Shown here: positions 2,517 through 45,908 of the stretch, piece by piece | How the letters are laid out: each line of letters begins with the position of its first letter | Position numbering within the stretch: the first letter of the stretch is position 1 | Assembly: GCA_035221665.1 (NCBI GenBank) | Contig: CM069155.1 | Coordinates: 30,380,001-30,444,000 of the forward strand | Direction of reading: 5' to 3' | DNA length: 64,000 nucleotides | Source of the DNA: Okamejei kenojei | Taxonomy: Eukaryota | Position numbers and translations under genes: made by a program | The notes under the pieces: generated by a model | Database searches by the model: none | Seen by the model: the letters and a program-made list of their open reading frames with translations, nothing else | What the model was told of the DNA's origin: nothing

Positions 2517-2619
2517 TAAATTGACCCAGGACAACCGAGCAGAAAGTCCCCTCCCCATACTCCCAGTGCCAACTCCGGATGCAGAGACAGAGAAACTGAT
2601 CAAAATGAAGGATGAAGAG
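2517..2619 (+). CDS. SEPTIN5: Septin-5, penultimate coding exon ([34 protein letters not shown])
   Basis: Acceptor tttacacag at 2508-2516 and donor gtgagt at 2620. The translation closely matches the recalled vertebrate SEPT5 C-terminus ([34 protein letters not shown]). Not in the ORF track. Confidence 0.93.
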
Positions 2620-3523
2620 GTGAGTGGCTAAAGTGTGAAGAAAGATGAGTGTCTGAGGTGTGAAATCCACACCATGTAACTGAACAGTCTGTGACAATCG
2701 TGAGTCTGTTATTGGTGGCCACCTGTGTGAGTAGATTCACCGAAAATATTTAAACCACAGTTGTGTTTTTACTGTTTAATTTTGTTTGCTGTTCATTTTT
2801 TAATTGTTTTGAGACTTGACAGGAAGTAATCATTTGCAAATTAATCGAGATGAGATTTTGCCGTGATTAGCTTGAATATGGAATCACCAACAGTGGGCAG
2901 AGCCAGTTTGGTGTTGAAATGTTGTTCTTTCCCAGCAATTAATTCATTCCCTGTGCTCCTGAGTAGTGGGCTTTCTAATGACTGTTTATCTGGCTATAAA
3001 TAAGCTACAATTTCAATTTTCTGCCAGATATTAAACTGGATTTGCAAATGTATTGCCCAATGTAGGAACCACTCAAATTGGATTCCCATTGAATCATCAG
3101 AAGGTACAATTGGACAGATTGAAGTATACAAGGCCTATCCATACAAGAATTTGGAAACTTGGATTGTAACTTCAATATTAGCCTTTGGTCTCTGAATTGA
3201 CAAGGGAATCAAGTTGTCATTAAGGAATCTCCTTACCTTAGATGTTGAGATAATTTCTCATGTCATCTGCCAATCCTCATTGTATTTGAATATAATCTAA
3301 TTTCACATAGTATTCAATTTATGCAAACTCAGCTGTTTGCATTTTTCATTATCTGAATATGAATGTTCCCAAGCGTTTTAGACACTCATTATCCTAGTAT
3401 AAGGGATGTGTGGTTGTTGAACCAGTGTGTATTGTTCAATGATGGAAAAACCATTGCTGTTGCCTGTTGCTAGTGTGTAGCAGTACACTATAGAGCTCAG
3501 TAATTACACATTCCTTTCTGCAG

Positions 3524-3580
3524 CTCCGGCGAATGCAGGAAATGTTGCAACGAATGCAGCAGCAAATGCAAGACCAGTGA
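3524..3580 (+). CDS. SEPTIN5: Septin-5, last coding exon (LRRMQEMLQRMQQQMQDQ*)
   Basis: Acceptor ttcctttctgcag ends at 3523, phase 0 as required by the previous exon. Matches the SEPT5 terminus LRRMQEMLQRMKQQMQDQ; TGA at 3578-3580. Confidence 0.93.
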   Translation, partial: LRRMQEMLQRMQQQMQDQ

Positions 3581-3897
3581 GCGATGGACTGAGACTGAGC
3601 AAAGAACAAAGACTCACCACTTCAACCAAATCCAACAGGAGTGAGGAAGGTGACACAAGACGCAGGGCAAGCCCCTGGGGGAAATGCACTGTACAGAACG
3701 TGTCATGTGTTTCCTGTTATACTCTAGAGTCAGCTCAAGGGTCACCTTGTGTCTTGCCTACCCTGTATAGTGCCACCATATAATTTACATATCCTGCTTG
3801 TTTGTCTGGGTTTGTATTTAATATCTTGTCAGTACAATTTAACAACATTCAGAGGGATATCTACATTGGAATGCTTATGTGGAAAATACTCTTTACT

Positions 3898-3903
3898 AAT
3901 AAA
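3898..3903 (+). promoter_or_regulatory. Candidate SEPTIN5 polyadenylation signal (AATAAA)
   Basis: AATAAA about 320 nt after the stop, followed by GT/T-rich sequence. Later AATAAA sites (e.g. 6321) are alternatives. Confidence 0.45.
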
Positions 3904-6900
3904 TGTTTTCAAATGGGTCTGACTTCAGGTATTGGGTTTTTTTTAGGGTCAGGAGTGCACGTGCTGGCCCGTGAATAATTTTGTACACATTGACATCCCA
4001 TTTTTTTTCTGATAACCGCAGAGAAAAGCAAAAATGACAGTTTGCATTTTTCTTTAAGCTCTCCGTAACTTCATGCTAAGGTTACAATAGAAACCCATGA
4101 ATATTCTGTGCAAAGTTGCACAAAACTCTGCCATGCCTCAAAGCCTGTCCTTCAAACTCACCATAAAAATATAAGAAATAGAAATAAGTATAGTCCTTCC
4201 TTGCCCACTGGATCACCATTCACTATGATCATGGCTGATCTTCTACCTCAGTGCTGTTTATTAACACATGGCTATTTGCCAGCAAAACCCCCATATCCCC
4301 TGGTTCCCTTCATGTCAAGAGATTGGTGGGTATAGGAAACACGCTGCCACAGGATGTAGCTGACAGGTAGCATAACACCATTGAAAAAAAACTTGGAAAT
4401 GTACATGGATAGGAAAGGTTAGAGGGATATGTGCTAAACATGAACAAATGGAAGTAGCTTTGATGTGCCATCTTGGTCGGCATGGACAAGATGAACCTAA
4501 GGGAGTTTTTCCATGCTGTATGACTATGACGTTGTATCTATCAATCTATGCTTTTAATGAATAATGATCAAACAATGGAACCTGAATAAGAGTTCAGATT
4601 GGCAATGAGGAAGTTCATTGTGTATTGAATACAGGATTTCTCCCAGAATGGTTTCATGTCTATGTCAATTGAATAATTACTTTCTCGTTTCTGTGAACTC
4701 TGACTGCGTCGAAACCATTATTAAGACAAAACCTAGCTAATGTTTCAGAAGGCACAAAATTGTCCTTGGGGGTAGACATGAAAATATATCACAGCACTGT
4801 GTAAATGCATTTATCGTGCTTGCAACGTTTAATTCAGTTGACTTAATTGGACAGAATTTTGGAAGCAGATTCCAATGAGCACACAAATCACATTTAGCAC
4901 ATGCAATGGGAGACACATTTCAGTACCGAAGTGTGAGACACATTCCATTACTTCTGCAAGCCTTTTCCAGGCTTACAAACGTTCTCCTTGGAGAAAGTTC
5001 AGCCAGTTTCACTAGTATTTTTCACTACCATGCTTTTGATGATTGAGAGAAGAATTTGCATAAATTAGCTTTGCAATCCCTGTAAATTACAGAACGAAGG
5101 GTGATTTCAGAGAGTTTTGATCATTCTGAATGGAATTAATGGGATAGATAGAGGAACTTACTTGCTAAAGTGCTGTCAGACAAAGGTACTTAACATAAAC
5201 CAAAGTAATTCAGAAAAATAATTACGATTCACTTCTCCCCACAAGAGTAGTAGTAGCATGGGATACTTTCCTACAGTAAACAGTAGATTCTAAAGCAATG
5301 GTTAAATCTCAGATTCATTGATTACTGCTGTCCAGGGTGATAAAGGGATATGTGCCAAAGGTTAGTGAAAAGGTTATAATACAGATCACTTGCAATTTTA
5401 TTGAAAGATAGAACAGGTCTCGGTATGAATGGCCTACTTTTTTTAATATCGGGCATTGTTAAAAAGATGTAGAAATATCATTCATATTGTACATTTCAGG
5501 AACACTTCTAATGAAACACTTTGAAGATGTAGTCGCTGTTGGAAATCACAACAGATAATTAAGTGCCATATGGTTCCACATATCGTAATGAGATTAATAG
5601 CATGTGGTGTAATACAGTGATGATGCCTGAGATATAAATGTTGGCTGGAGAGTCGGAGAACACCTTGCTCTTCCTGGACCATCTGTGTCTACTTGAGGAA
5701 AAATTCTATTCCAATATTTAAACCTTACTCAGTTTACAGCTTACGCGTATTTTATGCTTCTGATAAAAACTAGGCAATCATGTCAAAAGGATGAAGATTT
5801 TATTTCCTGCTCCACCCCCCACCTGACTCAGCAGCTTTCAACTTATATTTCTCTGTAACTATTTGGTATTTGTGTATCATTAACAGGAAGGCCCTATGAT
5901 GTAGCACTCTACCTATTTTGCTGTCTGCCTCAAAAGAAGGCACAGAGTAGGGAGGTCACATCAAGCTGTAAATGGAAACAGTTTGGCATGGTATCTTTGT
6001 GGCATTACAGACAAGCCAAGCTTCTGTTGATATATTCTGATGAGCAGTTCAATTTCTACAACATTACACTCATTACAGTCATTGTAATATAAAAGGTAAT
6101 GTAATATTTATTAATGTTTGGATCAAAAATCTCACTCTTTGCTTGGTGTAGTGCATTACTCATTCCCTGTATGGTTCCCTGTGTTTTTATACTTCCTGTA
6201 AACAGGTGCATTTACTGAAGGCACACTGCATTATATCCCCTTGTAGCGACAATGTATCTTTTATCATTACTTAATGTAGAGCATTTTAATATATTTCTGA
6301 AAAGCCTACTGAACCATCTGAATAAATTGGCGTCATGCTTGTGTTTAGCATATCAATTCCAAATGCTGACATGAATCAAACATTATTTTGTTTATCAGTA
6401 GCTTTCATTGCAGGGCCTCGCAGAAGTACGGAGGCTTGTATTTATTTTTAAATGGATTTCAGAGCTTGTATCCCCAGCTGTAATGCTTGCCCTCGTGTTA
6501 TTAAAATACTGCCCTTATTCCAATAATTGGTGTGCTTTAAGGGCAGCATGAAAGTGACACTTGCTGTCAGGCTCTGTAAAGACTTAAAATCTATTAGAAA
6601 CACTTGTTTTTCATGCCAAGCTCCAGCAGGGCGACAGAGATAAAATGGTTGAAAAACTGCCAACTCATCTACAGAGCTGCATTGACTTGTTGTTCATTTG
6701 CAGCCAGCAATATTGATAAGTTGCTTTTGAACTAAAAGCCAAGACTATGTGCCAAGTATATTATAGCCTTTGCCCCAAACTAGACCAGGAAGAAAAAAAC
6801 AAATAACCTGTAGTTTCAAAAGGAAGAAGGCATTGCTATGGAAGGAAAAACATTATAAATTAAAGAAAATGTTGCCTTAATTTTAAATAAAACTGCAATC

Positions 6901-8420
6901 TTTACTTTTGATAAGAACTTCTACAGTTTTGCAGATGGAACAAAAAATGAATTGGAATTCCTGACAATATGTAAATATATCAAGAATATTTTTGGATTTT
7001 GCATTTGGAAGGGAGGCATCATCAAAAAAGATCAGTGGTATATTAAAAATTTAACCTAAGGAAATCTACGACAAACCAAATTATTGGAAATTAGCAGCAA
7101 ACGACAATAATTTTAATGAATCATTCTACCTATGAATGTGTGAGATAGTGTGGTAATTTGGAAATTGGCTATTCTTCTTGCATTCATATTATGAAGGGTT
7201 CCGTGAGGAGATCAACATGTTTATGATTCAAAAACTGTACATAAAAATAAGGCATATATGATGTAGGGTGGCGGACTTCAAAAATAGCCCCTTAGTCATT
7301 GTATTTTGTTCAGCAGGGATTAAATTAAATACTAACACATTCTTCTTTATCTCCAGAATATTGCTCTGTCTTTGGAAACACTTGGTAAAACTAATTAGTT
7401 TTATGGTTATATCTTCATAAAACGTGTTTTCACAGAATGATCTTTCAAAACAAAATAGGAATATAATTACTCCTAATATGTGGAATTTTGTCATTGTCAG
7501 TATTTTTAGCTAATGAGAAGTTTTGTTTTATCCATAGCAGTGCAGTATAGAATCCTTATGGTTCACTGATTCTAGCCTAATCTGTCGAACAGTTTCCTCA
7601 CAAAATAGCCTTTCATTCCAGGTTTCAGTCTCTGTCAGTCTTCCCTAATCTGTTTCCAGTGTTACCATCCTACATGAGGAGATCAATACTATGCAGTGTA
7701 CTCCAGTCTAGATCTCACAAATGTTACAAATACCGGACATGCAATCTCCCATCATATGAGATGAAGAATGAGAGTGGAGTGAAGGCAGGGCCAAAAATGA
7801 GGTTATTCGTGTCTCAGTTGGTAACATTCCAACCTTAGAAAATAGAATATAGAAAAGTACAGTATAGAAACAGACCCTACAGCCCACAATGTTCACGCTG
7901 AACATGATGTCAAGTTAAACTAATTACCTCTGCCTGCATGTGATCTATATCCCTTCATTCCCTGCACTTCAATGTGAATTCAATTTTCACCCAGAGACTT
8001 GAGCACATGAGGACACTGAAGCTGCATAAATGCAGTCATACCAAGATTGGTATAGCCGCATAAATGCAGTCATGCCAGGATTATATACAACACAATAAGA
8101 CCTCCTTGCTCTTACATTTACATCAATTTGAACTAAGGTTTACAAAGCATTTGCATTCCTAATCACTTGTTACACCATCATGTCGGCATTCAGTGTTGGG
8201 TTAATTGGCTTTCACTTGTGTGCAAGCACATTTTGATACAGTTCAACATCAACACTTCCCAAATATTCATAATTTAAAGTAATTCTGGATTTTTTTTTGT
8301 GCTCCAGAGTGTACAAACTTAAATTTCTTCACATGATACTCCATCTGCCATGTTCTTGCCCATTCACAGAACATGGCTTTATTCCCCTCTAAATCTTCTT
8401 ACATTCACTTCCACGCTCGC

Positions 8421-8731
8421 TTAGTTTAGTTTAGAGGTACAGCGTGGATACCGGCCCTTCAGCCCACCGGGTCCATGTCAACCAGCGAGCCCCGCACATA
8501 AACACTATCCTACTCCCACTAGGGACAATTTTTGATATTCATCAAGCCAATTAACCTACAAACCTGTACGTCTTTGGAGTGCGGGAGGAAAACGAAGATC
8601 TCGGACAAAACCCACACAGGTCACGGGGAGAACATACATACTCCCTATGGCACCTGTGGCCGTGATCGAACCCGGGTCTCCGGCGCTGCATTCGCTGTAA
8701 GGCAGCAACTCTACCGTTGCGCCACCGTGAC
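8421..8731 (-). mobile_element. HE1-like (tRNA-derived) SINE
   Basis: Reverse complement has a tRNA-like head with a B-box (gggttcgatc), the core ggtttgtaggttaattggc and a (ctaaa)n tail; many copies in the window. Confidence 0.8.
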
Positions 8732-9819
8732 GCTGCTTAGTGTTGCGTGAACATCAAACTGTAAAATATGTCATTTGGTCCACTAGGCCAAATTGTTGAC
8801 ATAGATCGTGAGTAGATGAGACCTCAAGCTGCAACCTCAGTGGATCCCAACAGTCGTAACCCGCCAACTTGAGAAGGATTCTCTCCAGATTTGCTGCCTC
8901 ACCCGCTGAGTTACTCCAGCATTTTGTGTCTAACATGAGAAGGATTTATGTATACCCACTCTCAGCTATCTGTTGATAACCAATTCTCAATCTCTGTCAG
9001 TATATTGCTCACAATTTCATGTACTCTAATTTGGTTGACCAATTTTCAGTGTGGGATTTTTCAAAAACCCAAACACAACATATCCATTGGTTCCTCTTTA
9101 CCAGTTCTATCATTGCATCGCAAATAACTCCAACAGCATAGACAAAAGTGATCTTTTCATAGGTCCACCCTGACTTTGACAATCTGATTTATTTTTTCAA
9201 TGAAATTTGTTAATACATAATTTATGAGAAATTCTAGTATTATCCCTTGCCACTGATGTTAAGCCAGCGGACTCGTCGTTCCTTGTTTTTGTTGTCCCTT
9301 TTATTAGACAGTGATGTCACATTTCCACTTTTCGAACCATAGGAAAAAGGTTCACAAAACAGAAATGTTGAGGATATATTATCTCTACAGCTTGTCCTTC
9401 AGAACTTTGTGATATAGATCTTTGGGTCCTTCAGAATTTTCAGCTTTTAAGCTCACCAATACTTATTTCCCCAGTTCCTTGTTCTTGCTAAACCCATTTT
9501 TTTCTGATGTTTCTAATAGGGTTTCTGTGTCTTCTGTATTGAAGATGGACTCAAAGTATATTTCCCCAGAGGTACCAAGATCAGAAGGCAGCTTCCCCCC
9601 ATCCAGGCCTGGGTAATACATGGCAGTCCCATCAGTGAAGACCATATTCCATTAATCAAGGCAAAACAAAATGGTAAATTAAATATTATCTTCTGAGAAG
9701 CATTTTAAGACACGTCAAGGTCAAGAGAGACCATAAAAATGAAAGTGTTTCTTCAGATATGGCATGTGGGAAGCTAGAGAAGATATTCCAGGTGCCCTGG
9801 CTGAGATATATACAATTTA

Positions 9820-9985
9820 CAGAAGCCAATTAACCTGAAAACCAGCACGTCTTTAGAATGTGGGAGGAACTGACGCATCTGGATGAAACCCGCGTGGTCA
9901 CAGGGAGAATGTACAAAAACCGTACAGACAGCACCCGTAGTCAGGATTGAACCCGGGTCTCTGGTGCTGTATTATTGTGCCGCCC
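9820..9985 (-). mobile_element. HE1-like SINE, partial
   Basis: Same core as the 8421 copy (agccaattaacct...tgtgggagg...gaacccgggtct). Confidence 0.7.
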
Positions 9986-10051
9986 TCTTAAGACTTCTAT
10001 CATCTCTCCTTAACCATGGACATTCCAGAGAATAGAGAATAGACAGAGAGA

Positions 10052-10357
10052 GGGGTGGCACAGCGGTAGAGTTGCTGCCTTACAGCGCTTGCGGCGCATG
10101 AGACCCGGGTTCGATCCCGATTACGGGTGTTGTCTGTATGGAGTTTGTACGTTCTCCCCGTGACCGCGTGAGATTTCTCTGAGATCTTCGGTTTCCTCCC
10201 ACACTCCGAAGACATACAGGTTTGTAGGTTAATTGGCTTAGTATAAGCTAGTGTGTGTAGGGTAGCGTTAATGTGCGGGGAACACTTGCCAGCTCTGACT
10301 CGGTGGGCCAAAGGGTCTGTTTCTGCACTGAACCACTAAAACTAAACTAAAAACTAA
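10052..10357 (+). mobile_element. HE1-like SINE, near full length
   Basis: A-box-like tggcacagcggtaga, B-box gggttcgatccc, conserved core and (ctaaa)n tail. Confidence 0.85.
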
Positions 10358-12612
10358 AACAAGGACTGATTAGGGATAGTCAGCACAGTTTTGTACGTGG
10401 GAGCTTGTGTCTCATGAATCTCATTGAGTATTTTGAAGCTGTAACCAAAAAGGTTGCTGAGGGCAGAGCAGTGGAAGTTGCCTATATGGATTTCAGCAAG
10501 TCGTTTGATGCGGCTCCAGATGGCAGGCTGCTCTGGAATGTTGGATCGCATGGGATTAGGGAGAGCTAGCTGACTGGATAGAAAATTGGCTTCATGGCAG
10601 GAAGCAGAGAATGATTGTGGAAGTTTGTTTTTCAGACTGACGACCTGTGACTAGTTGTGTGCCTCATGGATCGGCGCTGGGCCCACTGCTGTTTAGTCAA
10701 GAGTCAAGAGTCAAGAGTGTCATGTGTCCCAGGTTGAACAATGAAATTCTTACCTGCTGCAGCACAACCGAATATGCAAACACAGTATGATATGACAAAC
10801 GAGAGAGAGAAAAGAAAAGCTTAGTGTGTGTATATATCCATACTCACAACATACCCATATATATGTATATACACATACACGCATACTCAAAAAACAAAAC
10901 CAAACAGTGCAACATTAATAATAATAGTCTATTGTGGTTCAGAGCCTGTATGAGGTTGAAGTGTTTAATAGGCTGACGTTACAGTTTTCAGGCTCCTGTA
11001 CCTTCTTCCCGATGGCAGTGGTGAAAAGCGTGTGAGGCCAGGACGATGTGTGTCTCTGATGATGTTGGCTGTTTTTTTGAGGCAACGACTCTAATAAATC
11101 CCTTCGATGGTGGAGAAGTCAGAACCGGTGATGGAGTGGGCAGTGTTCACAACTTTTTGCAGTCTTTTCCCCTCCCAGACGTTCAAGTTGCTGAACCAGA
11201 CAATGATGCGACCAGTCAATATGCTCTCTACTGTGCACCTGTAGAAGATCAAGAGAATCCTCTTTGACATATCAAATCTGCATAACCTTCTCAGGAAGAT
11301 GAGGTTTCCTTATAATTGCACCAGTGTGCTGGGTCCAGGAAAGATCGTCAGAAATCTTCGGCACGGACTGGAAGGGCCGAGAGGGCCTGTTTCCATGCTG
11401 TAATTGTTATATGGTTAAATATGCACACCCAAGAATTTGAAGTTTTTGACTCTCTCCACTATCGTCCCATTGATATAAATAGGACTGTGGGTCCTCATCC
11501 TTCCTCTTCCAAAGTCCACAATCAGTTCTTTGGTTTTACAGATATTGAGAGCCAGGTTGTTGTGCTGGCACCATTTGGTCAATTGGTCGATCTCACCTCT
11601 ATAATCTGACTCGTCACCATCTGTAATTTGTCCCACAATGGTGGTGTCAGCGGCAAACCTGACGATGGAGTTCGCACTATGTCCGGCTACACAGTCATGA
11701 GTGTAGAGTAGAGCAGTGGGCTGAGCACGCAGCCTTGAGGTGCTCCCGTACTGATTGTTAATGAGGGTGAAGTTTATATCAACAATTTGGATGAGAACAT
11801 ACAAGGCAGGATCGGTAATTTTGCAGATGACACTATAGTGGGTGATATTGCAGATAGCAAAGATGGTTAACAAAGGTTACAGTAGGATCTTGATCAGTTG
11901 GGCAACTTTAATGCAGATAAATGTGAGGTGATGCACTTTGGGAAATGTAACCAGGCAGTACATTCACAGTAAACGGTTGAGCTCTGTGCAGAACAGAGGG
12001 ATCAAAGAATGCAGGTGCATAGTACCTGGAAAATTGAGTCAAAGGCAGATCAAGAAATCAGGAAGTCCCCCGGTATATTGGCCTTCAACAGTCGGGTATT
12101 GAGTACAGAAGTTGAGATGTTATGTACAAGGTGCTGGCATGGCCACATTTGGAGTATTGTGTTCAGTTTTAGATACCCTGCTATAGGAAAGATATTGTTA
12201 ACCTGAAAGGAGTGCATCTCCCTTTAGCTCAGGGCCTGAGCTATAGGGAGATGTTGGGCAGGGTAGGACTGCAGTCCTTGGAGCGTAGGGAGATGAGGAG
12301 AGATCTTAGAGGTGTGCAAAATCATGAAGGGAAATGATAGGGTAGATGCACTGAGTCTTTTAGCCAGACAAGGGGAATCAAGATGCAGAGGCCATAGGTT
12401 TTAGATGAGAGGGGAAAGATTTAATAGGAATCAGAGGGGCAACTTTTTCACACAGAGGGTGGTGCATATGTCGAATAAGCTGCCAGGGGAGGTAGTTAAG
12501 GCAGTAACTATAATAACATTTAAAATACTTTTGGACAGGTATATGGAGAGAGAAGGCTTAGAGAATATGGACCAAATGCAGACAGGTGGGACTAGTGTAG
12601 ATGGGACACCTT
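10358..12612 (+). mobile_element. Degenerate CR1 LINE interrupted by a Rex1-type insertion
   Basis: CR1 RT remnants on both sides (SQHSFVRGSLC..., FADDT..., GNFFTQRVV) rejoin collinearly across 10695-11770. Confidence 0.75.
10695..11768 (-). mobile_element. Rex1/Babar-type non-LTR retrotransposon, 3' fragment
   Basis: YTHDC..SIVRFAADTTIVGQI..WCQHNNLALNICKTKELIVDF..VERVKNFKFLGVHI; tcttgac tandem tail at 10695-10720. Confidence 0.8.
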
Positions 12613-14999: not shown

Positions 15000-15557
15000 A
15001 TGATGGGGCGGCGAGAAACGTTCCTTGTGTTTCTTTCCATGCTTCCGGCGGCGATCTTCCAGTGTCCAGAAACGTGCAACTGCACAGGGACCTCCGTGGA
15101 CTGCAGCGGTCAGGAGCTGAATGTCAGTACTCTTCCCAGGCGCTTTGTGAACACCATCACCGAAATCAGACTGAGCAACAACAAACTCTCTGCCATCCCC
15201 AACGGGCTCTTCGACACTCTGCATCACCTGAGGTCCGTGTCGTTGGACAATAACCCATGGGCATGCGATTGCGATATTTTATACCTGAGATCATGGCTTC
15301 TGAAACAAGAAGACCGATCCCCGTACAAACACCTGACGTGCTCCTCGCCCGCGGAGCTTCAGAGCAGGCGCATACTGTATTTAACCGAAGATGAAGTGAT
15401 CGCTACGTGTGACGACTGGTACTGTCGCATTGTTCTCATCTGTCAGATTGGACTGGTCGCCTTTATCGTCATCCAGGCTATTCTTCTGATATTCGTTATA
15501 AGGTTTTTGAGGAGATTTGAGGCTCTTTCCGAAGAGGCCATTCGGTCGTCAAAGTAA
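15000..15557 (+). CDS. GP1BB: Platelet/thrombocyte glycoprotein Ib beta chain, 185 aa (signal peptide, LRRNT, one LRR, LRRCT, TM)
   Basis: CPETCNCTGTSVDC, LSNNKLSAIPNGLFD, NPWACDC..LRSWL..PYKHLTC..P..L..R...YLTEDE...C and a hydrophobic TM segment. Lies directly downstream of SEPTIN5, as in mammals. Acceptor ccacccgcag ends at 14990. Confidence 0.9.
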   Translation: MMGRRETFLVFLSMLPAAIFQCPETCNCTGTSVDCSGQELNVSTLPRRFVNTITEIRLSNNKLSAIPNGLFDTLHHLRSVSLDNNPWACDCDILYLRSWLLKQEDRSPYKHLTCSSPAELQSRRILYLTEDEVIATCDDWYCRIVLICQIGLVAFIVIQAILLIFVIRFLRRFEALSEEAIRSSK

Positions 15558-21337: not shown

Positions 21338-21373
<36 letters not shown>

Positions 21374-24109: not shown

Positions 24110-24432
24110 TTACATGCAGCCGGATCTGGCGATGTTTTCATGCAGCGGGCTTGCCAGAGCCTCGTGTTTAACCACACAGGAGTAAAGCTCGTATGAGTTC
24201 CAGACTGGGGCTGACAGAGTCAGGTAACTGCTCGCACTGAACGTGTTGTCCGCCTCCTGCTGGACCCGGCTGGTCTCAACGCCATCACTTCTCGCACTGC
24301 CGTCCACAGTCCACTTAATGTCCACAACGCCCGGATTAAACCCGCTCACTAAACACACCAGGGTGGCGCTGTTTTTCCCCGAGATTTCGGCCTCCGAAGG
24401 TGCGAGGACTGACACCGCGGGGGATCGCGGAC
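24110..24432 (-). CDS. IGLC: Ig light chain type II (lambda) constant exon, cluster 1
   Basis: SPRSPAVSVL..ATLVCLVSGFNPG..W..TFSASSYLTL..WNS.ELYSCVVKHE..IARSGCM*; C1-set Cys/Trp and penultimate Cys present; acceptor tttctattttcag, phase 1. Confidence 0.95.
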
Positions 24433-26967: not shown

Positions 26968-27294
26968 TGCCCAGATTTAGTTTGGTTCCCGTCCCGAAGA
27001 TATATCTACTATCGGTCCACATATAGCAGTAATAATCAGCGGCGTCTGTCGATTGAACGTTGGTGATGGTTAAATGCATTCTTGTCGATTCAACGGCACT
27101 GGTAAATCGATCAGGTATTCCGGTAGCTCTGGTCGTTCCATACCACACCAAGACTGGAGCGCTGTCGGGTTTCTGCCAGTACCAGCTCGGATAGGAAAAA
27201 GTCCCTTCTGATAGGGTGCAGGTGATCTTGACGGTTTGCCCCGGAAATGTGGAGATAGACGCGTCCTGAGTAACTGTCACCACCGCGCTTGTGG
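26968..27294 (-). CDS. IGLV: Germline-joined V-J exon, Ig light chain type II (lambda), cluster 1
   Basis: VTQDASISTFPGQTVKITC..SWYWQKPDSAPVLVWY..GIPDRF..DAADYYC-YMWTDSRYI-FGTGTKLNLG in one open frame; acceptor ttcctacag and donor gtaagt; no RSS between V and J. Confidence 0.95.
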
Positions 27295-27389: not shown

Positions 27390-27438
27390 TGCGAAGAAAT
27401 AACACCAGTACGGTCAGTCCTCGAACCCATTCAGCCAT
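27390..27438 (-). CDS. IGLV: Leader exon, IgL cluster 1 (MAEWVRGLTVLVLFLR)
   Basis: 49-nt exon, Kozak context gccATGG, phase-1 donor gtgagt; same length as the cluster 2 leader. Confidence 0.9.
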
Positions 27439-27513: not shown

Positions 27514-27582
27514 CTTATGAACTCAAAAACATCGCAACGTCACTGTGCTTTAATTATTCATGCAAATTGCTGATCACGTGAC
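27514..27582 (-). promoter_or_regulatory. IgL V promoter, cluster 1 (E-box, octamer ATTTGCAT, CRE half-site, TATA-like)
   Basis: ATGCAAAT at 27560-27567 (+), CACGTGAC from 27575, ACGTCA at 27537-27542, cttatga at 27514. Confidence 0.85.
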
Positions 27583-36123: not shown

Positions 36124-36279
36124 ATAAAATATGTGCGTGGGAAAAGCGTAGATCAGGGGAGCCGCAACCAACTGCGTCACACGTTGTCCAGCCCACTCTC
36201 CAAGTCGCCGAGAGACAGAAAAAACCGTAGTAACATCCAATTTCCTCTCCGTGTCTGTGGACCGACTCCAAGCACCCAT

Positions 36280-36440
36280 TGATGGGTTTGTAGGTTAATT
36301 GGCCCTGTGTAAACTGCCCCCTAGTGTGCAGGGAGTGGATGAGAAAGTGGGATAACATAGAACCAGTGTTATCGGGTGATTGATGGCCGGCACGGACTCG
36401 AGGTGCCGAAGGGTCTGTTTCCACGCTGTGTCTTTGAACT
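36280..36440 (+). mobile_element. HE1-like SINE, 3' half
   Basis: ggtttgtaggttaattggc...gaagggtctgtttccacgctg. Confidence 0.65.
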
Positions 36441-36894
36441 AATAATATTGAAAATGTCAAGACTTTTACCTATCGGATTTGAACAAGGGGAATATTATAC
36501 CAAGGTTGCAGAGTATTTGAATGGCATTTACTGCATAATCCCTGAGGTTATTCTTTGTAAAGTGAAGGACAGAGTTCATCTCTACAAGTTTCATTTTTCG
36601 AAGTTAATTTGTGGTTTATATTTACCATCTTGCCTTTGCTTATTTGTTCCCGCGATACATGAATCCAAGACTTACATTTAATGATACACAAAATATCAAT
36701 TTAAAGAAAGATATCAACTAATTTCCGCAATTGAGTATGAATATCGATTTTGACAAATTGGGAGTATACAGATAGAATTAAAGCGGAAGTGAGTACAGGA
36801 AAAGTTCAAAAAGACTCTCGAATTAATGGGAAGGAATGTTTGAGAAGGGTAAGAGAGTAAGGTCAGGGCCAATAGTGACCGCAGTGAGAAGGGA

Positions 36895-39235
36895 GGTGAA
36901 TATTCAATGGTATATGTACTATCGAAAAAACCGACAGGTTGGAAGAGGGAGTGGGGTAGCTCTGTTGGTGAGGATTGTAATTCAGTCATTTGCGAGGGGT
37001 GACATAGAATCAGGAGATGTAGAGTCAGTATGGATGGAACTGAGAAATAGTAAGGGTAAAAATAACTTAATGGGTGTTATCTACAGGCCCCTGAACAGTA
37101 GCCTGGATATAGGGTGCAAGTTGAATCCAGAGTTAAAATTGGCATGTGTTGTTATGGAAGATTTCAACATGCAGGTGGACTGGGAAAATCGGGTTGGTAC
37201 TGAACCCCAAGAAAGGGAGTTAGTGGCGATGGATTCTTCGAGCAGCTTGCAGGGATGACAGTGGGATTCTTAGATACCCTAGCACGGATGACAGTGGAAC
37301 AACAATGGCAGGTATTTCTGGGAATAATACAGAAGGTGCAGGATCAGTTCATTCCAAAGAGGAAGAAAGATTCCAAGGGGAGTAAGGTGCGACCGTGGCT
37401 GACAGGGGAAGCCAGGGACAGCATAAACAAAAAGAAAGGTACAACAGAGCTAAGATGAGCGGGAAGCCAGAGGATTGGGTAACTTTTGAAGAGCAACAGA
37501 AGATAACTAAAAAGACAATATGTGGAGAAAATATGAGGCACGAAGGTAAGCTGGCCAGGAATATAAATGAGGATAGTAAAACCTTCTTTAGGTATGTGAA
37601 GAGGGAAAAATTAGTTTAGACCAAAGATGGAGCCTTGAAGACTGAAAATAGTGAATTTATTGTGGGAAACATGGAAATGGGAGACGAGTTGAACAGGTAC
37701 TTTGGATCCATCTTCACTAATTATTAACAGATTAACCCTTATTAATCCATGTAGTGGATCATTCACAAACAATCTTCCTGATGTAGTGGTGGCCAGAGGA
37801 TCTAGGCTGACGGAGGAACTGAAGGAAATTCACATTAGGCTGGAAATGGTGTTGATGGGACTGAAGGCTGATAAATCCGCTGGGCCAGAGCGTCTCCATC
37901 CCAGAGTACTTAAGGATGTGGCTCTCGAAATCGTGGATGCATTGGTGATCATTTTCCAATGTTCTATAGAATCAGGATCAGTTCCTGTGGATTTAAGGGT
38001 TGGTAATGTTATCCCATTTTGTAAGAAAGGCGGGAGAGAGAAAACAGGGAATTATAGACCAATTAGCCTGACGTCGATGGTGGGGAAGATGCTGGATTCA
38101 ATTATAAACGATGAAATAGCAGCACATTTGGATAGCAGTAGCAGGGTCGGTCCGAGTCACCATGGATTTATGAAGGGGAAATCTTGCCTGAATAATCTTC
38201 TGGAATTTTTTGAGGATGTAACTGGGAAAATGGACAAGGGAGATTCAGCGGATGTAGTGTACCTGGACTTTCAGAAAGCATTTGATAAGGTCCCACATCG
38301 GAGATTACTGGGCAAAATTAGAGCACATGGTATTGGGGGAAGGGTGCTGACATGGATAGAAAATTGGTTGGCAGGCAGGAAACAAAGAGTAGGGATTAAC
38401 GTGTGCCTTTCAGAATGGTAGGCAGTGACTAGTGGGGTACCACAAGGATCAGTGCTGGGACCGCAGCTATTTACAATATATATTCATAATTTAGAAGAAG
38501 GGATTGAAAGTAACATTAGCAGATTTTCAGATGACACAAAACTGGGTGGCAGTGTGAACTGTGAGGAGGATGCTGTGAGGATGCAGGGATGGACATGTTG
38601 GGTGCGTGGATAGATGAATGGCAGATGCAGTTTAATGTGGATAAATGTGAGGTTATCCACTTTGGTGGCAAAACAGAAAGGCAGATTATTATCTAAATGG
38701 TGTCAAGTTGGGAAAAGGGGACGTACAATGGGATCTAGGGGTCCTTGTTAATCAGTCAATGAAAGTAAGCATGCAGGTACAGCAGGCAGCGAGGAAAGCG
38801 AAAGGCATGTTGACCTTCATAACAAGAGGAGTTGAGTATGGGAACAAAGAGGTTCTTCTGCAGTTGTACAGGGCCCTGGTAAGACAACACCTGGAGTATT
38901 GTGTGCAGTTTTGGTCTCCAAATTTGACGAAGGACATTCTTGCTATTGAGGAAGAGGAGCGTGGTAGTTGACGACTGTGTTTCCTCTCTTGTGGTTACAC
39001 TCCAAAAATTTAGAATTAGCTGGAAACATCCACGTTGGCGTATGTTCATTTCTTTGATAACCATGCATTGCTATATGTTTTGATACCAAAAATATGCACA
39101 AATTCATAGGTGTCAGAGGTTATGGGGAGAAGGCAGTAGAATGGGGTTAGGGGAGCGAGATAGATCAGCCACGATGGAATGGTCGAGTAGACTTGATGGG
39201 TCGAATGGCCTAATTGGGGCCTATTCCTTATTACA
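36895..39235 (+). mobile_element. Degenerate CR1 LINE (endonuclease plus RT)
   Basis: GSGVALLV..ESVWMEL..GVIYRP (APE); NYRPISLTS..HGFMKGKSCL..YLDFQKAFDKVPH; PQGSVLGP; FSDDTKL; interrupted near 38960-39105. Confidence 0.9.
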
Positions 39236-40015
39236 TGACCAAATTCGATATATCTTGATGGGATTCATTTTCACGTTCTAACACCTCTAAGTATGACATT
39301 GCTGTAAAATGCATTGCTAGGTTTTTCACTACCTAACCTACAGATTTATTGTTTTCTTAAATAATTGGGGTAGATTAACTTCGTAAGGTTTGGTATCATT
39401 CGATTCAAGCAATGTGCGTTTAATGTCATTCGTGGTCAATGTATCACTTTGGAGTTATTTTACATGAAGCTGACTGCAATACCCCAGACGATGGGCGGAG
39501 AATATGAGTCTGAAGAAGGGTCTTGACCCATCACCCATTCCTTCTCTCCAGAAATGCTGCCATTTTCCCGCTGAGTTACTCCAGCATTGATGTCTACCGG
39601 CGATAATGAGTCCCCTTTCTTTGGTGTCACCCACGATAGACATTAGGTGCAGGAGTAGGCCAGGAGTAAGCACATTTTCCACTGAAATAACAAAAGTTCT
39701 CAAAATTATTGAAAATTAATGTCGATACTTCCACATTAACGGGAGGTCTCATATATGGATGACTGCTTGATATTTTCATGCTGTGATTCCAGATTTGACA
39801 ACGACATGGATGGGAGTCTTTGCAGGTCCGAGAACAATCCAATCCATCCCGTTCTCCATCTTATTTCCTCGTGACCTATTCGCTCACAATGCCAATTAAT
39901 GCTCCTACATTAACTGAAATTTACAATGGCCAATTAGCCCAACAACCTGCACGACCCTGGGGTGTGATGAGAAATTGGAGCCCACTGAGGAATCGGGGGT
40001 GGGGGGTGGGGGGGT

Positions 40016-40047
<32 letters not shown>

Positions 40048-42550
40048 AATGGGGTACCGTCACAGGGAGAAGGGGAAAATAGCGCAAAGACTGCATCGGA
40101 GCTCAGGGTTCAACCCAGTTCGCTGGAGGTCCGAGCCAAATGGTCTACCTGTAGCGCCACCGCCGTCCACACCAGGGTATTCCCATCGGTGGAGTGAGAG
40201 CTGACTGAGATTCCTTTAGATTACGATTTAATCTCCTGCAGGATCCATGGGCTCATTCATTTGAAAGAAGATTCTGGGGCTAAAAGTGAAGACTAACTAC
40301 AATTTTATTTATTTCAATTATCTGATGTTTCATTTTTGGACACACCGATCTGTTCTGTAGTCATGCCTACTATGTTCAGTTGTGCTGAAGCAAAGCAATA
40401 ATTTAATTGTCCTATCAGGGACACATGACAATAAACTCTCTTGAATCTTGAATCTTGAATCTTTTATATTTCATGTTTCATATTTTATTCATATTTTAAT
40501 TGAATGTATTTGCTTTCCTTTGAATTAGATTTACTTAAATCTATTTCTGTACCTTTAATTGCTTCTGAATGTCAGAAAGGTTTAGATACATTGAAAGATC
40601 TCCACTAGTTTCACAAACATTCAAAACTAGGTGACGACATTCCCATTTTGTCAAGACTTTCAGGATGCGCTTTCTTGGACCACCACATCGCTCGCAATAT
40701 ATTATTCAAGGATCAGCTTCTCTCAAGCTCGTTTCGGGGACAGTTTTGGCCGTTCAAAATGCCCTTCCAAGTCCATTAAGACGACGTTCCGTGAATGTTG
40801 AATGCGGGTGGCATACAAGGGACCCGACTCGGGAATCCTGCGACGACAGAAGATTTCTTAATTCTTCACGGTCAAATCCACATGCTATTATTTTGCTCAC
40901 TCACTTAATCCGTTTGTTTCTTGTTTTCACCCAGTTTACTCCCCCTCGTAACGTTTTACGATCTGCGCCTCTCCCTGTTCTGACTGGAAGGGAACTCCGT
41001 TAATCCAGCTAATGAGAAAACCCTGGATCATCGCATCCCGCCCCATGCTTCCGATCCAACTGCAACCCCATAGTTCATTCAATTTGATTTGAGGAGCATC
41101 TCACCCATTGTGGAATCGATTTCTTATCGTCATAATGTGTCACATCTCAATGCTGAATGCTGTAACGAATCTCGTTTCTAGTGAAAATCATCTCATTTAT
41201 CCCTTCCTTTCGAATGTATAGTATTCCAGTGAGATACAATGTGTGGGGAGGAACTGCAGATGCTGATTGAAACCGAAGATAGACACAAAAAGATGGAGTA
41301 ACTCAGCGGGACAGGCAGCATCTTTGGAGAGAAGGAATGAGTGACGTTTCGGTCGAGACCCTCCTTGAACACTCATTCCTTCTCTCCAGGGATGCTGCCT
41401 GTCCCGCTGAGTTACTACTGCTTTTTGTGTCTATCCAAGTTAGATACATGGCTGTGTATTAAAAGTGTGAAATTCTAAACAGATCTACACAACTCTCCTC
41501 CATGTCTAACTGATCCCATGTGCCCAACCCTCACCTTCCCCACTATCAGTTTCCGTAAATGCAGCCTCCCGTGTCTCTACATATCATCTCCTTCTGTGTC
41601 TAAACCCACGCCCCCCCCCCCCCCCCACCCCCGCCCCCGGCCTATTTCTTATTTTTGCTTCTATCAGTGCGTGCATCCGGATTATTTGTGAGGGGAGGTA
41701 GTCAATATAAAGAGCTAAGAGTGGGGGTGGGATAGGGGTTGGCTGGTGAAAAGGGAAATTAGTTAAGAAGGGGCAGAAGGTGCCATGTTAAAGAGGGGGA
41801 GTGATAGAGTCGGGAGAAAGCTGTTGGTGGGTGGGTGATAGAGACTGATACACTGAAGATAGACACAAAATTCTGGTGTAACTCAGCAGGACAGGCGGAA
41901 TCTCTGGATAGAAGGAATGGGTGACCCTTCCTCACACTGAAGAGCAGACAAATATGCAGAGATGCTTGCTGGTAGACAAAAGTGCTGGAGAAACTCAGCG
42001 GGTGCAGCAGCATCCATAGAGCGAAGAAAATAGGCAACGCTTCGGGCCGAACCCCTTCTTCACACTGAGTTTCTGAGTTTCTCCAGCACTTTTGTCTACT
42101 TTCGATTTGTTGCCTGTCCCGCTGAGTTACTCCAGCATTTCGTGTTTATCTTCAGTGTAAACCAGCATCCGTAGTTCCTTTAATAGCCATTGATTGTTCT
42201 TTCCCGCCGTAACCCACCTAGAATGACTTTAAAAAGACAAACTTGGATTAGTTTAATTCGGCGCCATGGCCTGGAAATACAACCATGGCGAATGAACCGT
42301 TCGTGTAGTGCATCGTTTCCGTCCTAACTGTTGTAAAGTTATTTAGCTGAACTTAAAACTTTTGCTAACATATTTACTAATGTATTAATGCATATTTAGG
42401 ATATCATTGTTTTGGTACAAAATAGTCGTGTAATGCAGGGCGATAAACGAGACATTATTGCTCTCCCCACCTTAATAAATTACATTGTGCAATTGCTGTG
42501 ACTGAAACAATCTATAAAAGAAAACAGACATGTAATATCTGAGCGTGAAT

Positions 42551-42556
42551 TTTATT
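42551..42556 (-). promoter_or_regulatory. Candidate poly(A) signal, IgL cluster 2
   Basis: tttatt on +, about 40 nt after the C-exon stop. Confidence 0.45.
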
Positions 42557-42592
42557 TCCAAATGTATCAATTCAAGACATCATATTTTTGAA

Positions 42593-42915
42593 TCATGCAC
42601 AACCAGATCTGGCGATGTTTGTCTTCAGTGGGTTTGCCTGAGTCTCGTGTTTAACCACACAGGAGTAAAGCTCGTGTGAGTTCCAGTCTGACGCTGGCAG
42701 AGTCAGGTAACTGCTGGTACTGAACGTGTTGTCCTGATCCTGCTGGGCTCGGCCTGTGTCGACGCCATCACTTCTCGTACTGCCATCCACCGTCCACCCA
42801 ATGTCCACAACGCCCGGGTTGAACCCGTTCACCAAACACACCAGAGTGGCGGTGCCCTTTCCCGCGATTTCTTCCTCTGAAGGTCCAAGGACGGACACCG
42901 CGGGAGGCTGGGGAC
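42593..42915 (-). CDS. IGLC: Ig light chain type II (lambda) constant exon, cluster 2
   Basis: SPQPPAVSVL..ATLVCLVNGFNPG..W..DWNSHELYSCVVKHE..IARSGCA*; acceptor tttctattttccag; 323 nt, same as cluster 1. Confidence 0.95.
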
Positions 42916-45291
42916 CTGGAAAATAGAAAGAAGTACAGCATAGTGAATTATTAACGCTGGCCTTCCGAATCAAGTGTTTACTTTGTTTCCCCAGATTCCA
43001 GAGATAGAACATTTGCCGTATTAGGGAACATTCAGAAGGCGGGGATGCAGTGTCTAGATTTTAGAGCAATGAATTATATTCGCATCGAAACAGGCAAACT
43101 CCTTTCGTGCCTTGACGTTCCGTTGACATCTGGAAGTAACGGGCCGTCTACTCCTGTTCCCGTTTGTTATGTTTTTATTTCCACTATTTTATAATTAATA
43201 TAATTTTGCAAACACGTGAAAATGTTTGTGCAACAGAAGATCATTACTACAGTTTGTCCAAAGGTCTGGAAACAATTCAACGATTAACATAAGAATAAAT
43301 CAACGATTTTAGGTAGATATTCCATCCTTGAAATTAAATGCAGCGAGGTTTGGAGATTAGCAGCCAAACTCAAAATATTTAACTGTGATCAATGCCGATT
43401 GGTTTCCGCAACAATTTTATGAACCCTTCCCAGATGCATGCCCGGCGTGCTGACCCGCTTACCAAAGTGCTGAGCACTTTGCGTTTCATTCAGAATTTCA
43501 AACTCTACAGTTTTCTGTATCACCCTTCTATCGCTGTCTTAAAACAAACTTCACACAGTTCACACAGCGCACGTGTAAATATCACAAAAAGCGGTTAATA
43601 CAGTCGCAGCAACATTTATTTATTTTGATCAGCACCTGAAAAAGCACGGATCTTTAATTTTATTGTATGGAAGGTTGAAAGCCCCAATCCGTGTCAACCT
43701 CAAACTCGTCACTAATTCCATTTTGTCCGCACGGTCCAGAATAAAGGAAGATTGTTGATTGAAATATCCAGCGCGATTGAAATAATGAGCAGTTCTTAAT
43801 GTCAGTTTATCGTCAGCCCTTCAAAAGTATAATAAAATACTTAATTGACTCCTTACCAATGGAAGCTTTGAAGATATAGATATTAAAAAATGTAAATATT
43901 GTACAAAATACATGCTTCTTTATATTCGACGTACCACATTCCAAAGTAATGCAGCCAAACATTATATCTATCGCGACAGCATCAACATGTTCAGTGCTAT
44001 TTGACTGAACAACTGGCATTGCCCAATACAAAGGTATTCAAATAAAAGTGAACGAAAGTGAGTGACATGCCATCCCCTGAAGTGTCAATCAGAAAATGCT
44101 CACGAAGGTGTTTAGTGTGAAATAAAATAGCGTCGTTTGCAGATTTTATAATTGTGTTTTTAGTATTTGCTGGCAATGAGCTTCGGCTCGGAAGTCAATT
44201 CGAAATGTATTTCCTCGTCGAATGTCACAGCAAAATGCCTCATAAGGCATTGTTAAACACAGTCAGACAATTTACGTAGAATAACAAATGAGGGGGGGGG
44301 GACCATTAGGCAAAGAGATAGATTTCATGAGCATGTTAAGGATGAAAAGAGAGGTAGGAAGCATGAGATGCTTGAGGGGTAATCCGGAGTTTTGATCTTC
44401 ATGGTGACAATAGGTGACAATAGCGTTGGCGATTAAGCGGCCAAATTTAGAGAAAGCCAATGCCTCAGAAATTCCTGCGATTAGACAACCATCCCACGAC
44501 TGTGATAACAAAATTAGATTTTTTTTTTAATCTAGTGGTTACTTAGACATGAACAATGAACAAGTGTACATCAGCACGACGCGATAACGGAGATTTCCAT
44601 ACTCTCGAGTATATAGAATATAGAAAGAGAAAGATTCAGGAATAACAAACGCGAAATAGGCCGATATTGCACTGGCGGAACCAGCAGTTCTCTACTTTCT
44701 TCTGTGCGTCAGTGACGCTTTCGATCACGATTGCTTTTGCTACATCCACACTTAATCATTCCCTTCTGTTCTCAAGGCTGAAACGCTCGATAAGAGGATC
44801 TACCTAATAAGCGATTCGTGCGCCCGCTCCAAGTTTTTAAACACGGAGGCATAAGAGATGGCAGATGCTGCAAATGCTGCAAAACAAAAACAAACTGGTG
44901 GAGGAACTCAGGGGGTCAGGCGCCATCAGCGGGGGCCTCGTTATACCTTCTCCCGATGCAGAGTCTCAACCTGAAATGTGGACCAGCTCTGTGTCTCCAT
45001 AGATGCTGCCTTGTCGCTGACCGCTCCCACCTGCTCGTTTATTTTCCCCACCTTGAACTAACAGGAAGTGTCCTTCGCGTTTGACTTTCTTTAACTCTCA
45101 CTCGCGGCTACTCACATATCCTGCGTTAATACATTAAACTAACAGAAATTTCAACTTAAACCCAGCGACTTTATTCGCCCGTAATATCGCAAGACTTGGA
45201 GGACAACTTGTAGAGCGCTTTGAAAACCGGATCAAGTTGAAAGCGGACGGTTGCATTGTGCTGAATTTCAGGTAGTCATTATTGTACTTAC

Positions 45292-45624
45292 TGCTTAGAT
45301 TCAATTTGGTTCCTTTCCCGAAGCCAATATTTCCAACTAAACAGTAATAATCGGCGACATCCTCAGATCGCAGGTTGGTGATGGTCAGGTGCATCTTATT
45401 GTTCGGATCATCCACGGTACCGGTGAATCGATCTGGAATTCCAGAAGCTCTGGAGCTCTCATACCACACTAAGACCGGTGCGCTGCCGGGCTTATGCCAG
45501 TACCAACTAGTGTAGTAGCTGCTCATCTGGGCTCCTGAGAGAGTACAAGTGATCTTGACCGTTTTCCCCGGAGAAGTCGAGATGGACGTAGGGTCCTGAG
45601 TCACCAAAGTCTCTGCGATTGAAG
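45292..45624 (-). CDS. IGLV: Germline-joined V-J exon, Ig light chain type II (lambda), cluster 2
   Basis: VTQDPTSISTSPGKTVKITC..SWYWHKPGSAPVLVWY..GIPDRFTG..EDVADYYC-LVGNIG-FGKGTKLNLS; acceptor tttcaccag and donor gtaagt; no RSS. Confidence 0.95.
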
Positions 45625-45714
45625 CTGGTGAAATAACAAATTAATATTTGTAAACATACAATCTATCAGCAGAATGCAATGAGCAGCTCACTGATAATTA
45701 TGTTTTCTACTTAC

Positions 45715-45763
45715 TATGGAAGCAGAACACGACCGCGGCCAGAAGGCGAATCCATTCAGACAT
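45715..45763 (-). CDS. IGLV: Leader exon, IgL cluster 2 (MSEWIRLLAAVVFCFH)
   Basis: 49-nt exon, accATG, phase-1 donor gtaagt. Confidence 0.9.
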
Positions 45764-45839
45764 GGTGAAGGAGGTGGTGAGGGTCAGAATCTAAATGTTT
45801 TCCAACAGAGGTCCGTTTCTGGTTCTTTAGAAATCTCCC

Positions 45840-45908
45840 CTTAAGAACTCCTCAACATCACAACGTCACCGAGTTTTAATTATTCATGCAAATCTCTATC
45901 CACGTGAC
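45840..45908 (-). promoter_or_regulatory. IgL V promoter, cluster 2
   Basis: ATGCAAAT at 45886-45893, CACGTGAC from 45901, ACGTCA at 45863-45868, cttaaga at 45840. Confidence 0.85.

What the first reader, a model, noticed from the sequence alone, without database searches (positions are those of the whole stretch)
2517..45908. Lambda-type IgL clusters sit directly beside SEPTIN5-GP1BB, genes linked to IGL on human 22q11
Seen: SEPTIN5 then GP1BB on +, and 8.5 kb later the first of at least two convergently transcribed type II IgL clusters. Known: human SEPTIN5-GP1BB-TBX1 and the IGL locus are both in 22q11.2, and chondrichthyan Ig clusters are usually dispersed. Inference: this may be the ancestral lambda location, giving synteny support for type II = lambda orthology. 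The Ig clusters occupy the position where TBX1 follows GP1BB in mammals; I saw no T-box exon in the window.
Basis: partly seen in the sequence, partly recalled or inferred. Interest (0 to 1): 0.7.

Follow-up and report, generated by a model that had tools for sequence, protein, structure and literature searches.

The report
Skate lambda antibody locus encloses HIRA–GP1BB
In this skate-like genome the pre-joined lambda-type antibody light-chain genes form two facing arrays, each with its own variable-gene family, around a block of genes from the human DiGeorge region (HIRA to GP1BB); the layout is likely shared with sharks and likely marks the old home of the lambda locus, although calling this chain type lambda is already accepted.

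Summary
Observation confirmed: SEPTIN5 exons and GP1BB (+), then 8.55 kb later two intact, germline-joined VJ–C type II light-chain clusters (−). The window is the edge of a larger structure. All close C-exon matches (40 places) lie in 1.35 Mb of contig C25, as two convergent arrays around an intact HIRA–C22orf39–UFD1–CDC45–CLDN5–SEPTIN5–GP1BB block in human order. The arrays carry different V families (mean 47% identical), both found in sharks and rays. GP1BB and these genes share a chromosome in 16 of 16 testable elasmobranchs; in bamboo shark the gene numbered next to GP1BB is a light chain of the same V family as here, which argues against a misjoin. The human IGL flanks PPIL2, TOP3 and GNAZ lie 0.2–1.1 Mb away, and HIRA, a published tetrapod lambda marker, lies 37 kb from one array. 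TBX1 is 9.3 Mb away, with a clathrin gene (CLTCL1-like) as its upstream neighbour, so the HIRA–GP1BB block moved in one lineage; which lineage is unresolved. Type II = lambda is already accepted; the synteny and two-array layout were not found in the papers I could search. The C-domain tree does not decide the isotype.

The parts
1..66 (+). Septin (SEPTIN5) internal exon, 3' part; gene begins upstream of the window (C25 30.366 Mb)
   Evidence: Pfam Septin match C25:30379920-30380066
2517..2619 (+). SEPTIN5 penultimate coding exon
   Evidence: AG/GT boundaries, open frame; name from recall and position
3524..3580 (+). SEPTIN5 last coding exon with stop
15000..15557 (+). GP1BB coding sequence, 185 aa
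   Evidence: named GP1BB homologues; LRRNT/LRR Pfam
24110..24432 (-). IgL cluster 1 C exon (C1-set)
26968..27294 (-). IgL cluster 1 germline-joined VJ exon, V family A
   Evidence: no RSS
27390..27438 (-). IgL cluster 1 leader exon
27560..27567 (-). Octamer promoter motif of cluster 1
   Evidence: motif recalled
42593..42915 (-). IgL cluster 2 C exon (C1-set)
45292..45624 (-). IgL cluster 2 germline-joined VJ exon, V family A
45715..45763 (-). IgL cluster 2 leader exon
45886..45893 (-). Octamer promoter motif of cluster 2
   Evidence: motif recalled

Best explanation
The window is the inner edge of a single 1.35 Mb locus of germline-joined lambda-type (type II) light-chain clusters, arranged as two facing arrays with different V families around an intact HIRA-to-GP1BB gene block; this layout likely predates the shark-ray split, and the surrounding region is likely the ancestral neighbourhood of the jawed-vertebrate lambda locus. 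Each leader-VJ-C unit is an open frame with its own octamer in family A (shown), so it would be transcribed without RAG rearrangement, with diversity coming from about 30 different pre-joined VJ exons plus somatic hypermutation (established for type II chains; not tested here). History, inferred: two seed clusters came to lie on opposite sides of the block in opposite orientation, each expanded by local tandem duplication, their V exons diverged into families A and B, and their C exons were likely kept alike by sequence exchange within lineages. The HIRA-GP1BB block moved as a unit in one lineage (here inside the Ig locus; in human between CLTCL1 and TBX1); I put it at about even odds, slightly in favour, that lambda-beside-HIRA is the older state.
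For: Layout: 40 C-exon places on C25, 27 left of the block (23 on +, 4 on -) and 13 right of it (all -). Block order and strands match human: HIRA(-), C22orf39/PANTS(-), UFD1(-), CDC45(+), claudin(-), septins(+), GP1BB(+) (human order in the PMC4487986 supplement). Last + C exon to first HIRA match 37 kb, no N between. V families: 19 left matches at 39-51% to window V2, 13 right matches (12 at 65-100%, one broken); A-B identity mean 47% against 77% and 68% within; tree support A 100/99, B 91/89, each with sharks and batoids; both families in 16 of 23 source labels. Regional markers: cyclophilin-domain PPIL2-like gene 28.93-29.10 Mb, TOP3 28.54 Mb, GNAZ 28.15-28.24 Mb; HIRA/MRPL40 and GNAZ/RTDR1 are the published tetrapod lambda markers (PMC4762898 section 15), TOP3B likewise (PMC9614664 passages). 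Isotype: both V families score higher on human V-lambda than V-kappa domains (101 vs 60 bits; 83 vs 55-63). C exchange: shark-batoid C identity is 70.3% whether V families match or not, while V identity is 66.4% vs 49.5%.
Against: Accession order is only a proxy for position: 6 of 13 species showed no IgL accession near GP1BB among the 1-6 looked up each, and TBX1 is within 26 numbers of GP1BB in 2 of 15 species (Pristis, Stegostoma). The exact human junction is not kept: no C-exon match lies between TOP3 and GNAZ, where human IGL sits (human order recalled). IFT81, the neighbour of sturgeon and gar lambda (PMC5985310), is 11 Mb away; SMARCB1 and MIF-family genes are 2.4-4 Mb away. The right flank is RPLP0/paxillin across a scaffold gap. 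'Flanking' in PMC4762898 includes human, where HIRA is megabases from IGL, so it does not prove adjacency. My C tree leaves the link to tetrapod lambda unresolved (81/45) and has no shark or tetrapod kappa; the V tree has no kappa and its non-shark rows are unnamed. The 119 proteins were selected by likeness to a batoid family A C exon, which may bias the C-identity comparison. No holocephalan or bony-fish gene order was seen. MRPL40 was not found by my partial scan.
Confidence: 0.72

Rival explanations
1. The human order (CLTCL1-HIRA...GP1BB-TBX1) is ancestral, and the HIRA-GP1BB block was transposed into the lambda locus in the cartilaginous-fish line, splitting and partly inverting it. GP1BB and HIRA adjacency then says nothing about the jawed-vertebrate ancestor; only the looser PPIL2/TOP3B/GNAZ linkage does.
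For: A clathrin heavy-chain gene is the nearest recognised gene upstream of TBX1, about 290 kb away across repeat-rich sequence, with the block missing between them; an insertion with inversion explains two facing arrays; human and mouse both have GP1BB next to TBX1.
Against: HIRA/MRPL40 are reported beside lambda in Xenopus, chicken, mouse and Anolis (distances not given); GP1BB-TBX1 adjacency is not shown in zebrafish (chr 8 vs chr 5, confounded by genome duplication); no Ig remnants were found in 200 kb upstream of TBX1 at 39.44-39.64 Mb.
Confidence: 0.4
2. The two arrays are two separate ancient light-chain lineages that share C exons by exchange; only one (or neither) is the strict orthologue of tetrapod lambda, the other being elasmobranch-specific or related to lambda-2.
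For: A-B V identity 34-58%; the V tree does not join A and B into one supported clade apart from the unnamed lambda-type rows; an exact octamer lay within 750 bases upstream in 9 of 9 family A loci but 1 of 19 family B loci.
Against: Both families best match human V-lambda, both are fully VJ-joined, share one C type and one locus; human V-lambda subgroups differ about as much (recalled).
Confidence: 0.15
3. The GP1BB-IgL junction is an assembly misjoin in repeat-rich sequence.
Against: No N in the window; family A IgL ids are next to GP1BB ids in independent assemblies of Chiloscyllium punctatum (1 apart), Mustelus (1), Amblyraja (3), Heterodontus (3), Heptranchias (7).
Confidence: 0.03

Closest known systems
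Chondrichthyan type II / NS3 / lambda light chains (Criscitiello and Flajnik 2007, not read; as summarised in PMC5192425, PMC4279169, PMC5985310)
   Same: One V, J and C per cluster; all VJ germline-joined; C exon 63-95% identical to the 119 hits, nearly all named elasmobranch 'lambda-1-like' proteins, incl. sandbar shark lambda.
   Different: The passages I read give no chromosomal position, flanking genes, two-array layout or two segregated V families; PMC12227049 says the genomic distribution of the clusters is not well known.
Tetrapod Ig-lambda locus (human 22q11.22; Xenopus type III)
   Same: Same marker genes nearby: HIRA, GNAZ (PMC4762898), TOP3B, PPIL2, YPEL1 (PMC9614664 figure key); V exons most like V-lambda.
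   Different: Clusters of pre-joined genes rather than a rearranging translocon; locus is split by the HIRA-GP1BB block; it does not lie between TOP3B and GNAZ.
Sturgeon lambda and gar C-lambda pseudogene beside IFT81 (PMC5985310)
   Same: IFT81 is on the same chromosome, C25.
   Different: IFT81 is 11 Mb from the arrays, so the immediate neighbourhood differs.
Human 22q11.2 (DiGeorge) core, CLTCL1-HIRA...GP1BB-TBX1...TANGO2
   Same: HIRA-GP1BB block intact in order and strand; TBX1 and TANGO2 within 0.55 Mb of each other.
   Different: The two parts are 9.3 Mb apart here and on different chromosomes in Hypanus and two Mobula species; a clathrin gene lies directly upstream of TBX1.

Membership tests
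Chondrichthyan type II (lambda) IgL | Cluster of one leader, VJ and C exon | tested here: met
   Two intact clusters, 232 and 234 aa
Chondrichthyan type II (lambda) IgL | V and J joined in the germline, no RSS | tested here: met
   30 of 32 V matches on C25 read V into J with no RSS (28, 2 in the window); the other 2 look broken or partial and were not parsed
Chondrichthyan type II (lambda) IgL | C exon groups with known type II C exons, apart from sigma and sigma-2 | tested here: met
   Window C exons inside a batoid type II clade 98/97; own sigma-like and sigma-2-like C exons separate, 44-47% identical; sigma labels rest on recalled motifs
Vertebrate lambda isotype | V domain closer to V-lambda than V-kappa | tested here: met
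   101 vs 60 bits, 83 vs 55-63 bits; lambda/kappa labels of the PDB domains recognised from their sequence, recalled
Vertebrate lambda isotype | V or VJC phylogeny with all five isotypes | tested here: inconclusive
   A, B and unnamed lambda-type rows separate from sigma/sigma-2 at 95/83, but no kappa or lambda-2 V rows were available
Vertebrate lambda isotype | C-domain phylogeny with tetrapod C-lambda | tested here: inconclusive
   Support 81/45, no shark or tetrapod kappa; known to be poorly resolved
Vertebrate lambda isotype | 23-bp spacer RSS on V | not testable with these tools
   No split V gene exists among those parsed
Vertebrate lambda isotype | Linkage to HIRA/MRPL40 and GNAZ/RTDR1 (and TOP3B) | tested here: met
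   HIRA 37 kb, TOP3 0.77 Mb, GNAZ 1.1 Mb from the left array; MRPL40 not found, RTDR1 not searched
Vertebrate lambda isotype | Position between TOP3B and RSPH14/GNAZ as in human | tested here: not met
   No C-exon match between 28.24 and 28.54 Mb (lower-bound search)
Vertebrate lambda isotype | Linkage to IFT81 as in sturgeon and gar | tested here: not met
   Same chromosome, 11 Mb away
Functional light chain | Expression in B cells and pairing with heavy chain | not tested
   No RNA data laid

The most novel reading that the evidence does not exclude
Sharks and rays keep two ancient lambda sub-loci, facing each other and swapping C exons while their V families stay apart, and the core of the human DiGeorge region (HIRA to GP1BB) originally lay inside or beside the lambda locus and was moved between CLTCL1 and TBX1 only in the bony-vertebrate line.
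Probability: 0.3. Interest if true: 0.7.

Novelty: new variant of a known kind. Interest (0 to 1): 0.5.

Why it matters
It gives tree-independent support for the lambda identity of shark type II chains, where C-domain trees are known to fail, and shows that this isotype's clusters sit in one locus rather than scattered. Two V families held on opposite sides of a housekeeping block offer a testable setting for how pre-joined light-chain clusters are chosen and kept alike. It also marks the GP1BB/TBX1 and CLTCL1/HIRA junctions as old rearrangement points of the 22q11.2 region.

Tried and rejected
The T-box gene at C25 26.47 Mb is not TBX1 (best PDB hit TBX5, weak); TBX1 is at 39.74 Mb (58 of 60 residues identical to PDB 4a04). 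A simple recent inversion of one array is rejected because the two sides carry different, old V families. PDB search with the C exon was dominated by multi-domain heavy chains; the representative search gave unnamed rows only; the Atlas named lambda-C and kappa-C clusters alike at 0.97: none decides the isotype. The exon scan of 100 kb upstream of TBX1 found nothing clear. PMC9614664 supplements give no HIRA or TOP3B positions; the elephant shark supplement text had no IgL, HIRA or GP1BB hits, though files or figures I could not see may bear on this; PMC7677710 has no IgL passage. Three look-ups of earlier scan findings returned nothing. Six papers were not held: Criscitiello and Flajnik 2007, a 2017 shark light-chain paper sought by a recalled PubMed id, Ohta 2019, Matz 2021, Flajnik 2024, Saha 2014; any of them may already report the linkage or the two V families.
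Full report
1. Observation. The window (G000:C25:30,380,001-30,444,000) has no N. It holds the last exons of a SEPT2-group septin (the name SEPTIN5 is from recall and position), GP1BB at 15000-15557 and two minus-strand leader-VJ-C clusters with canonical splice sites, octamers and open frames of 232 and 234 aa. GP1BB and the first C exon end 8.55 kb apart. No T-box match falls in the window. Closest named relatives of the C exon are skate proteins at 94-95%, so the genome is skate-like.

2. The locus. A C-exon search gave 107 matches; 41 of them (40 places) lie on C25 between 29.316 and 30.658 Mb, including the 33 best; the best match elsewhere is 45% identical (150 of 184 candidates scored). 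Twenty-seven places lie left of a 530 kb interval (23 on +, 4 on -) and 13 right of it (all -); the window clusters are the first two of the right array. Some are broken, and one is a 97% copy of cluster 1 starting at a scaffold gap, possibly an uncollapsed haplotype. The interval holds HIRA(-) 29.909-29.977, a PANTS/C22orf39 exon(-), UFD1(-), CDC45(+), a single-exon claudin(-), a second septin(+), SEPTIN5(+) and GP1BB(+), the human order and strands (positions in the PMC4487986 supplement; strands recalled). I fetched about 350 of the 530 kb; MRPL40 was not found. HIRA lies 37 kb from the last + C exon with no gap between; one 500-N gap lies inside the block at 30.27 Mb.

3. Two V families. 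A V search gave 40 matches, 32 on C25: 13 on the right (12 at 65-100% identity, one broken) and 19 on the left at 39-51%. Twenty-eight fetched V exons and both window exons read straight into J with no RSS; two matches were not parsed. Identity is 77% within A, 68% within B, 47% between. In a 38-row V tree A (100/99) and B (91/89) each contain sharks and batoids; of 119 related proteins 74 are A and 45 B, with both in 16 of 23 source labels. Across the shark-batoid divide V identity follows family (66.4 vs 49.5%) but C identity does not (70.3 vs 70.3%), and different-family C exons within a lineage are closer (75.5%). I read this as exchange of C sequence between arrays; the sample was chosen by likeness to one C exon, so this is tentative.

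4. Other species. No other genome could be read, so I used contig lengths and accession numbers. GP1BB and type II chains sit on a contig of the same length in 16 of 16 elasmobranchs with chromosome-scale records for both. Left out: Scyliorhinus torazame (draft scaffolds, different lengths), Rhincodon, Stegostoma, Callorhinchus (no IgL hit), S. canicula, Rhinoraja (no GP1BB hit), and four species without contig data. In Chiloscyllium punctatum the GenBank ids are GP1BB GCC28657, a family A chain GCC28658 and a family B chain GCC28643, which reproduces the B - block - A layout if ids follow position (assumed). An IgL accession lies within 24 numbers of GP1BB in 7 of 13 species: family A in C. 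punctatum (1), Mustelus (1), Amblyraja (3), Heterodontus (3), Heptranchias (7); family B in Hemiscyllium (7) and C. plagiosum (24). Six species (Pristis, Leucoraja, Hypanus, Hemitrygon, Carcharodon, Cetorhinus) showed none among the few looked up; RefSeq order is a loose proxy, as C. punctatum's RefSeq ids are 179 apart.

5. TBX1. It lies at C25 39.74 Mb, 9.34 Mb from GP1BB, with TANGO2 at 40.27 Mb. The nearest recognised gene upstream is a clathrin heavy chain on the minus strand at 39.44-39.45 Mb (CLTCL1 by position, inferred), with a scaffold gap 14 kb before TBX1. In human the HIRA-GP1BB block lies between CLTCL1 and TBX1. TBX1 is on a different chromosome from GP1BB and IgL in Hypanus and two Mobula species; its accession is within 26 of GP1BB in 2 of 15 species, which is ambiguous. 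So the block moved as a unit in one lineage. Zebrafish (gp1bb chr 8, tbx1 chr 5) does not settle the direction.

6. Synteny with lambda. Left of the locus lie C-type lectin and Hairy-orange exons (29.21-29.26 Mb), a PPIL2-like cyclophilin gene (28.93-29.10), a weak Yippee match (28.87, E 0.007), TOP3 (28.54; TOP3B by position) and GNAZ (28.15-28.24); 28.55-28.79 Mb was not examined. PMC4762898 (section 15 read) uses HIRA/MRPL40 and GNAZ/RTDR1 as lambda markers in tetrapods only; PMC9614664 (passages) anchors on TOP3B and MIF. Against an exact match: IgL is not between TOP3 and GNAZ; IFT81, the sturgeon and gar neighbour (PMC5985310 passages), is 11 Mb off; SMARCB1 and MIF-family genes are 2.4-4 Mb off; the right flank is RPLP0 and paxillin across a gap. 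The neighbourhood is conserved; single junctions are not.

7. Isotype. Both V families score higher on human V-lambda than V-kappa domains. The C tree nests the window exons in batoid type II but leaves the tetrapod link open, as PMC5985310 section 29 reports for C trees in general. Sigma-like (C28) and sigma-2-like (C26, C581) clusters lie elsewhere (labels from recalled motifs).

8. Mechanism. Shown: intact pre-joined clusters, two arrays, two V families, the enclosed block. Established knowledge: type II genes are all germline-joined and diversify by hypermutation (PMC5192425, PMC4279169 passages). Inferred: two oppositely oriented seeds, tandem expansion, C-exon exchange, an age before the shark-ray split, and (about even odds) lambda beside HIRA as the older state.

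9. Novelty. Ten searches of the held library found no paper placing shark or skate lambda beside HIRA or GP1BB, or describing the two arrays. Seen as passages: PMC9614664, PMC12227049 (plus supplement hits), PMC3308330, PMC5192425, PMC4279169, PMC13320880, PMC7677710, PMC4487986 (plus its whole supplement); named sections: PMC5985310 s29, PMC4762898 s15; supplement search only: PMC3964593. Six key papers were not held, so prior publication is not excluded. Verdict: real, conserved, a useful corroboration of an accepted orthology, with an undescribed-looking two-array layout. Interest 0.5.

Noticed in passing
window 54900-59600 (+): GC-rich element with a long gag-like ORF, a reverse-transcriptase ORF (RVT_1) and a recombinase-like ORF by eye: likely a DIRS-type retrotransposon; related ORF at L008:7397-8431.
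   Followed up: partly
L080:1340-10000 (C25 30.525-30.534 Mb): 97.2% copy of window 21.5-30.2 kb including cluster 1, starting at a 500-N gap, many small indels and an apparently shifted J: possible uncollapsed haplotype or recent duplication.
   Followed up: partly
C25 30.193-30.236 Mb (L073, L074): A second SEPT2-group septin between the claudin and SEPTIN5, not present at this place in the human list.
   Followed up: partly
L056-L057 (C25 30.03 Mb, -): Exons resembling an FKBP/TPR protein between C22orf39 and UFD1 by eye; no Pfam match.
   Followed up: no
L081-L099 (family B V exons): An exact octamer lay within 750 bases upstream in 1 of 19 family B loci against 9 of 9 family A loci; longer leader introns or a different promoter are both possible.
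   Followed up: no
L076, L079 (C28): Sigma-like light-chain V and J appear joined in one frame in L079 and nearly so in L076.
   Followed up: no
window 43554 (+): One RSS-like site (23 spacer, 2 mismatches) in the J-C intron of cluster 2, the only one in the window scan; probably chance.
   Followed up: no
L002-L003 (C25 36.72-36.73 Mb, -): A divergent T-box gene not assigned to a subfamily.
   Followed up: no
L021-L030, L121-L140 (C25 39.47-39.73 Mb): About 260 kb repeat-rich stretch without recognised genes upstream of TBX1, a candidate regulatory desert.
   Followed up: partly
L064-L066, L070 (C25 29.21-29.27 Mb): C-type lectin exons and a Hairy-orange gene directly left of the family B array.
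   Followed up: partly
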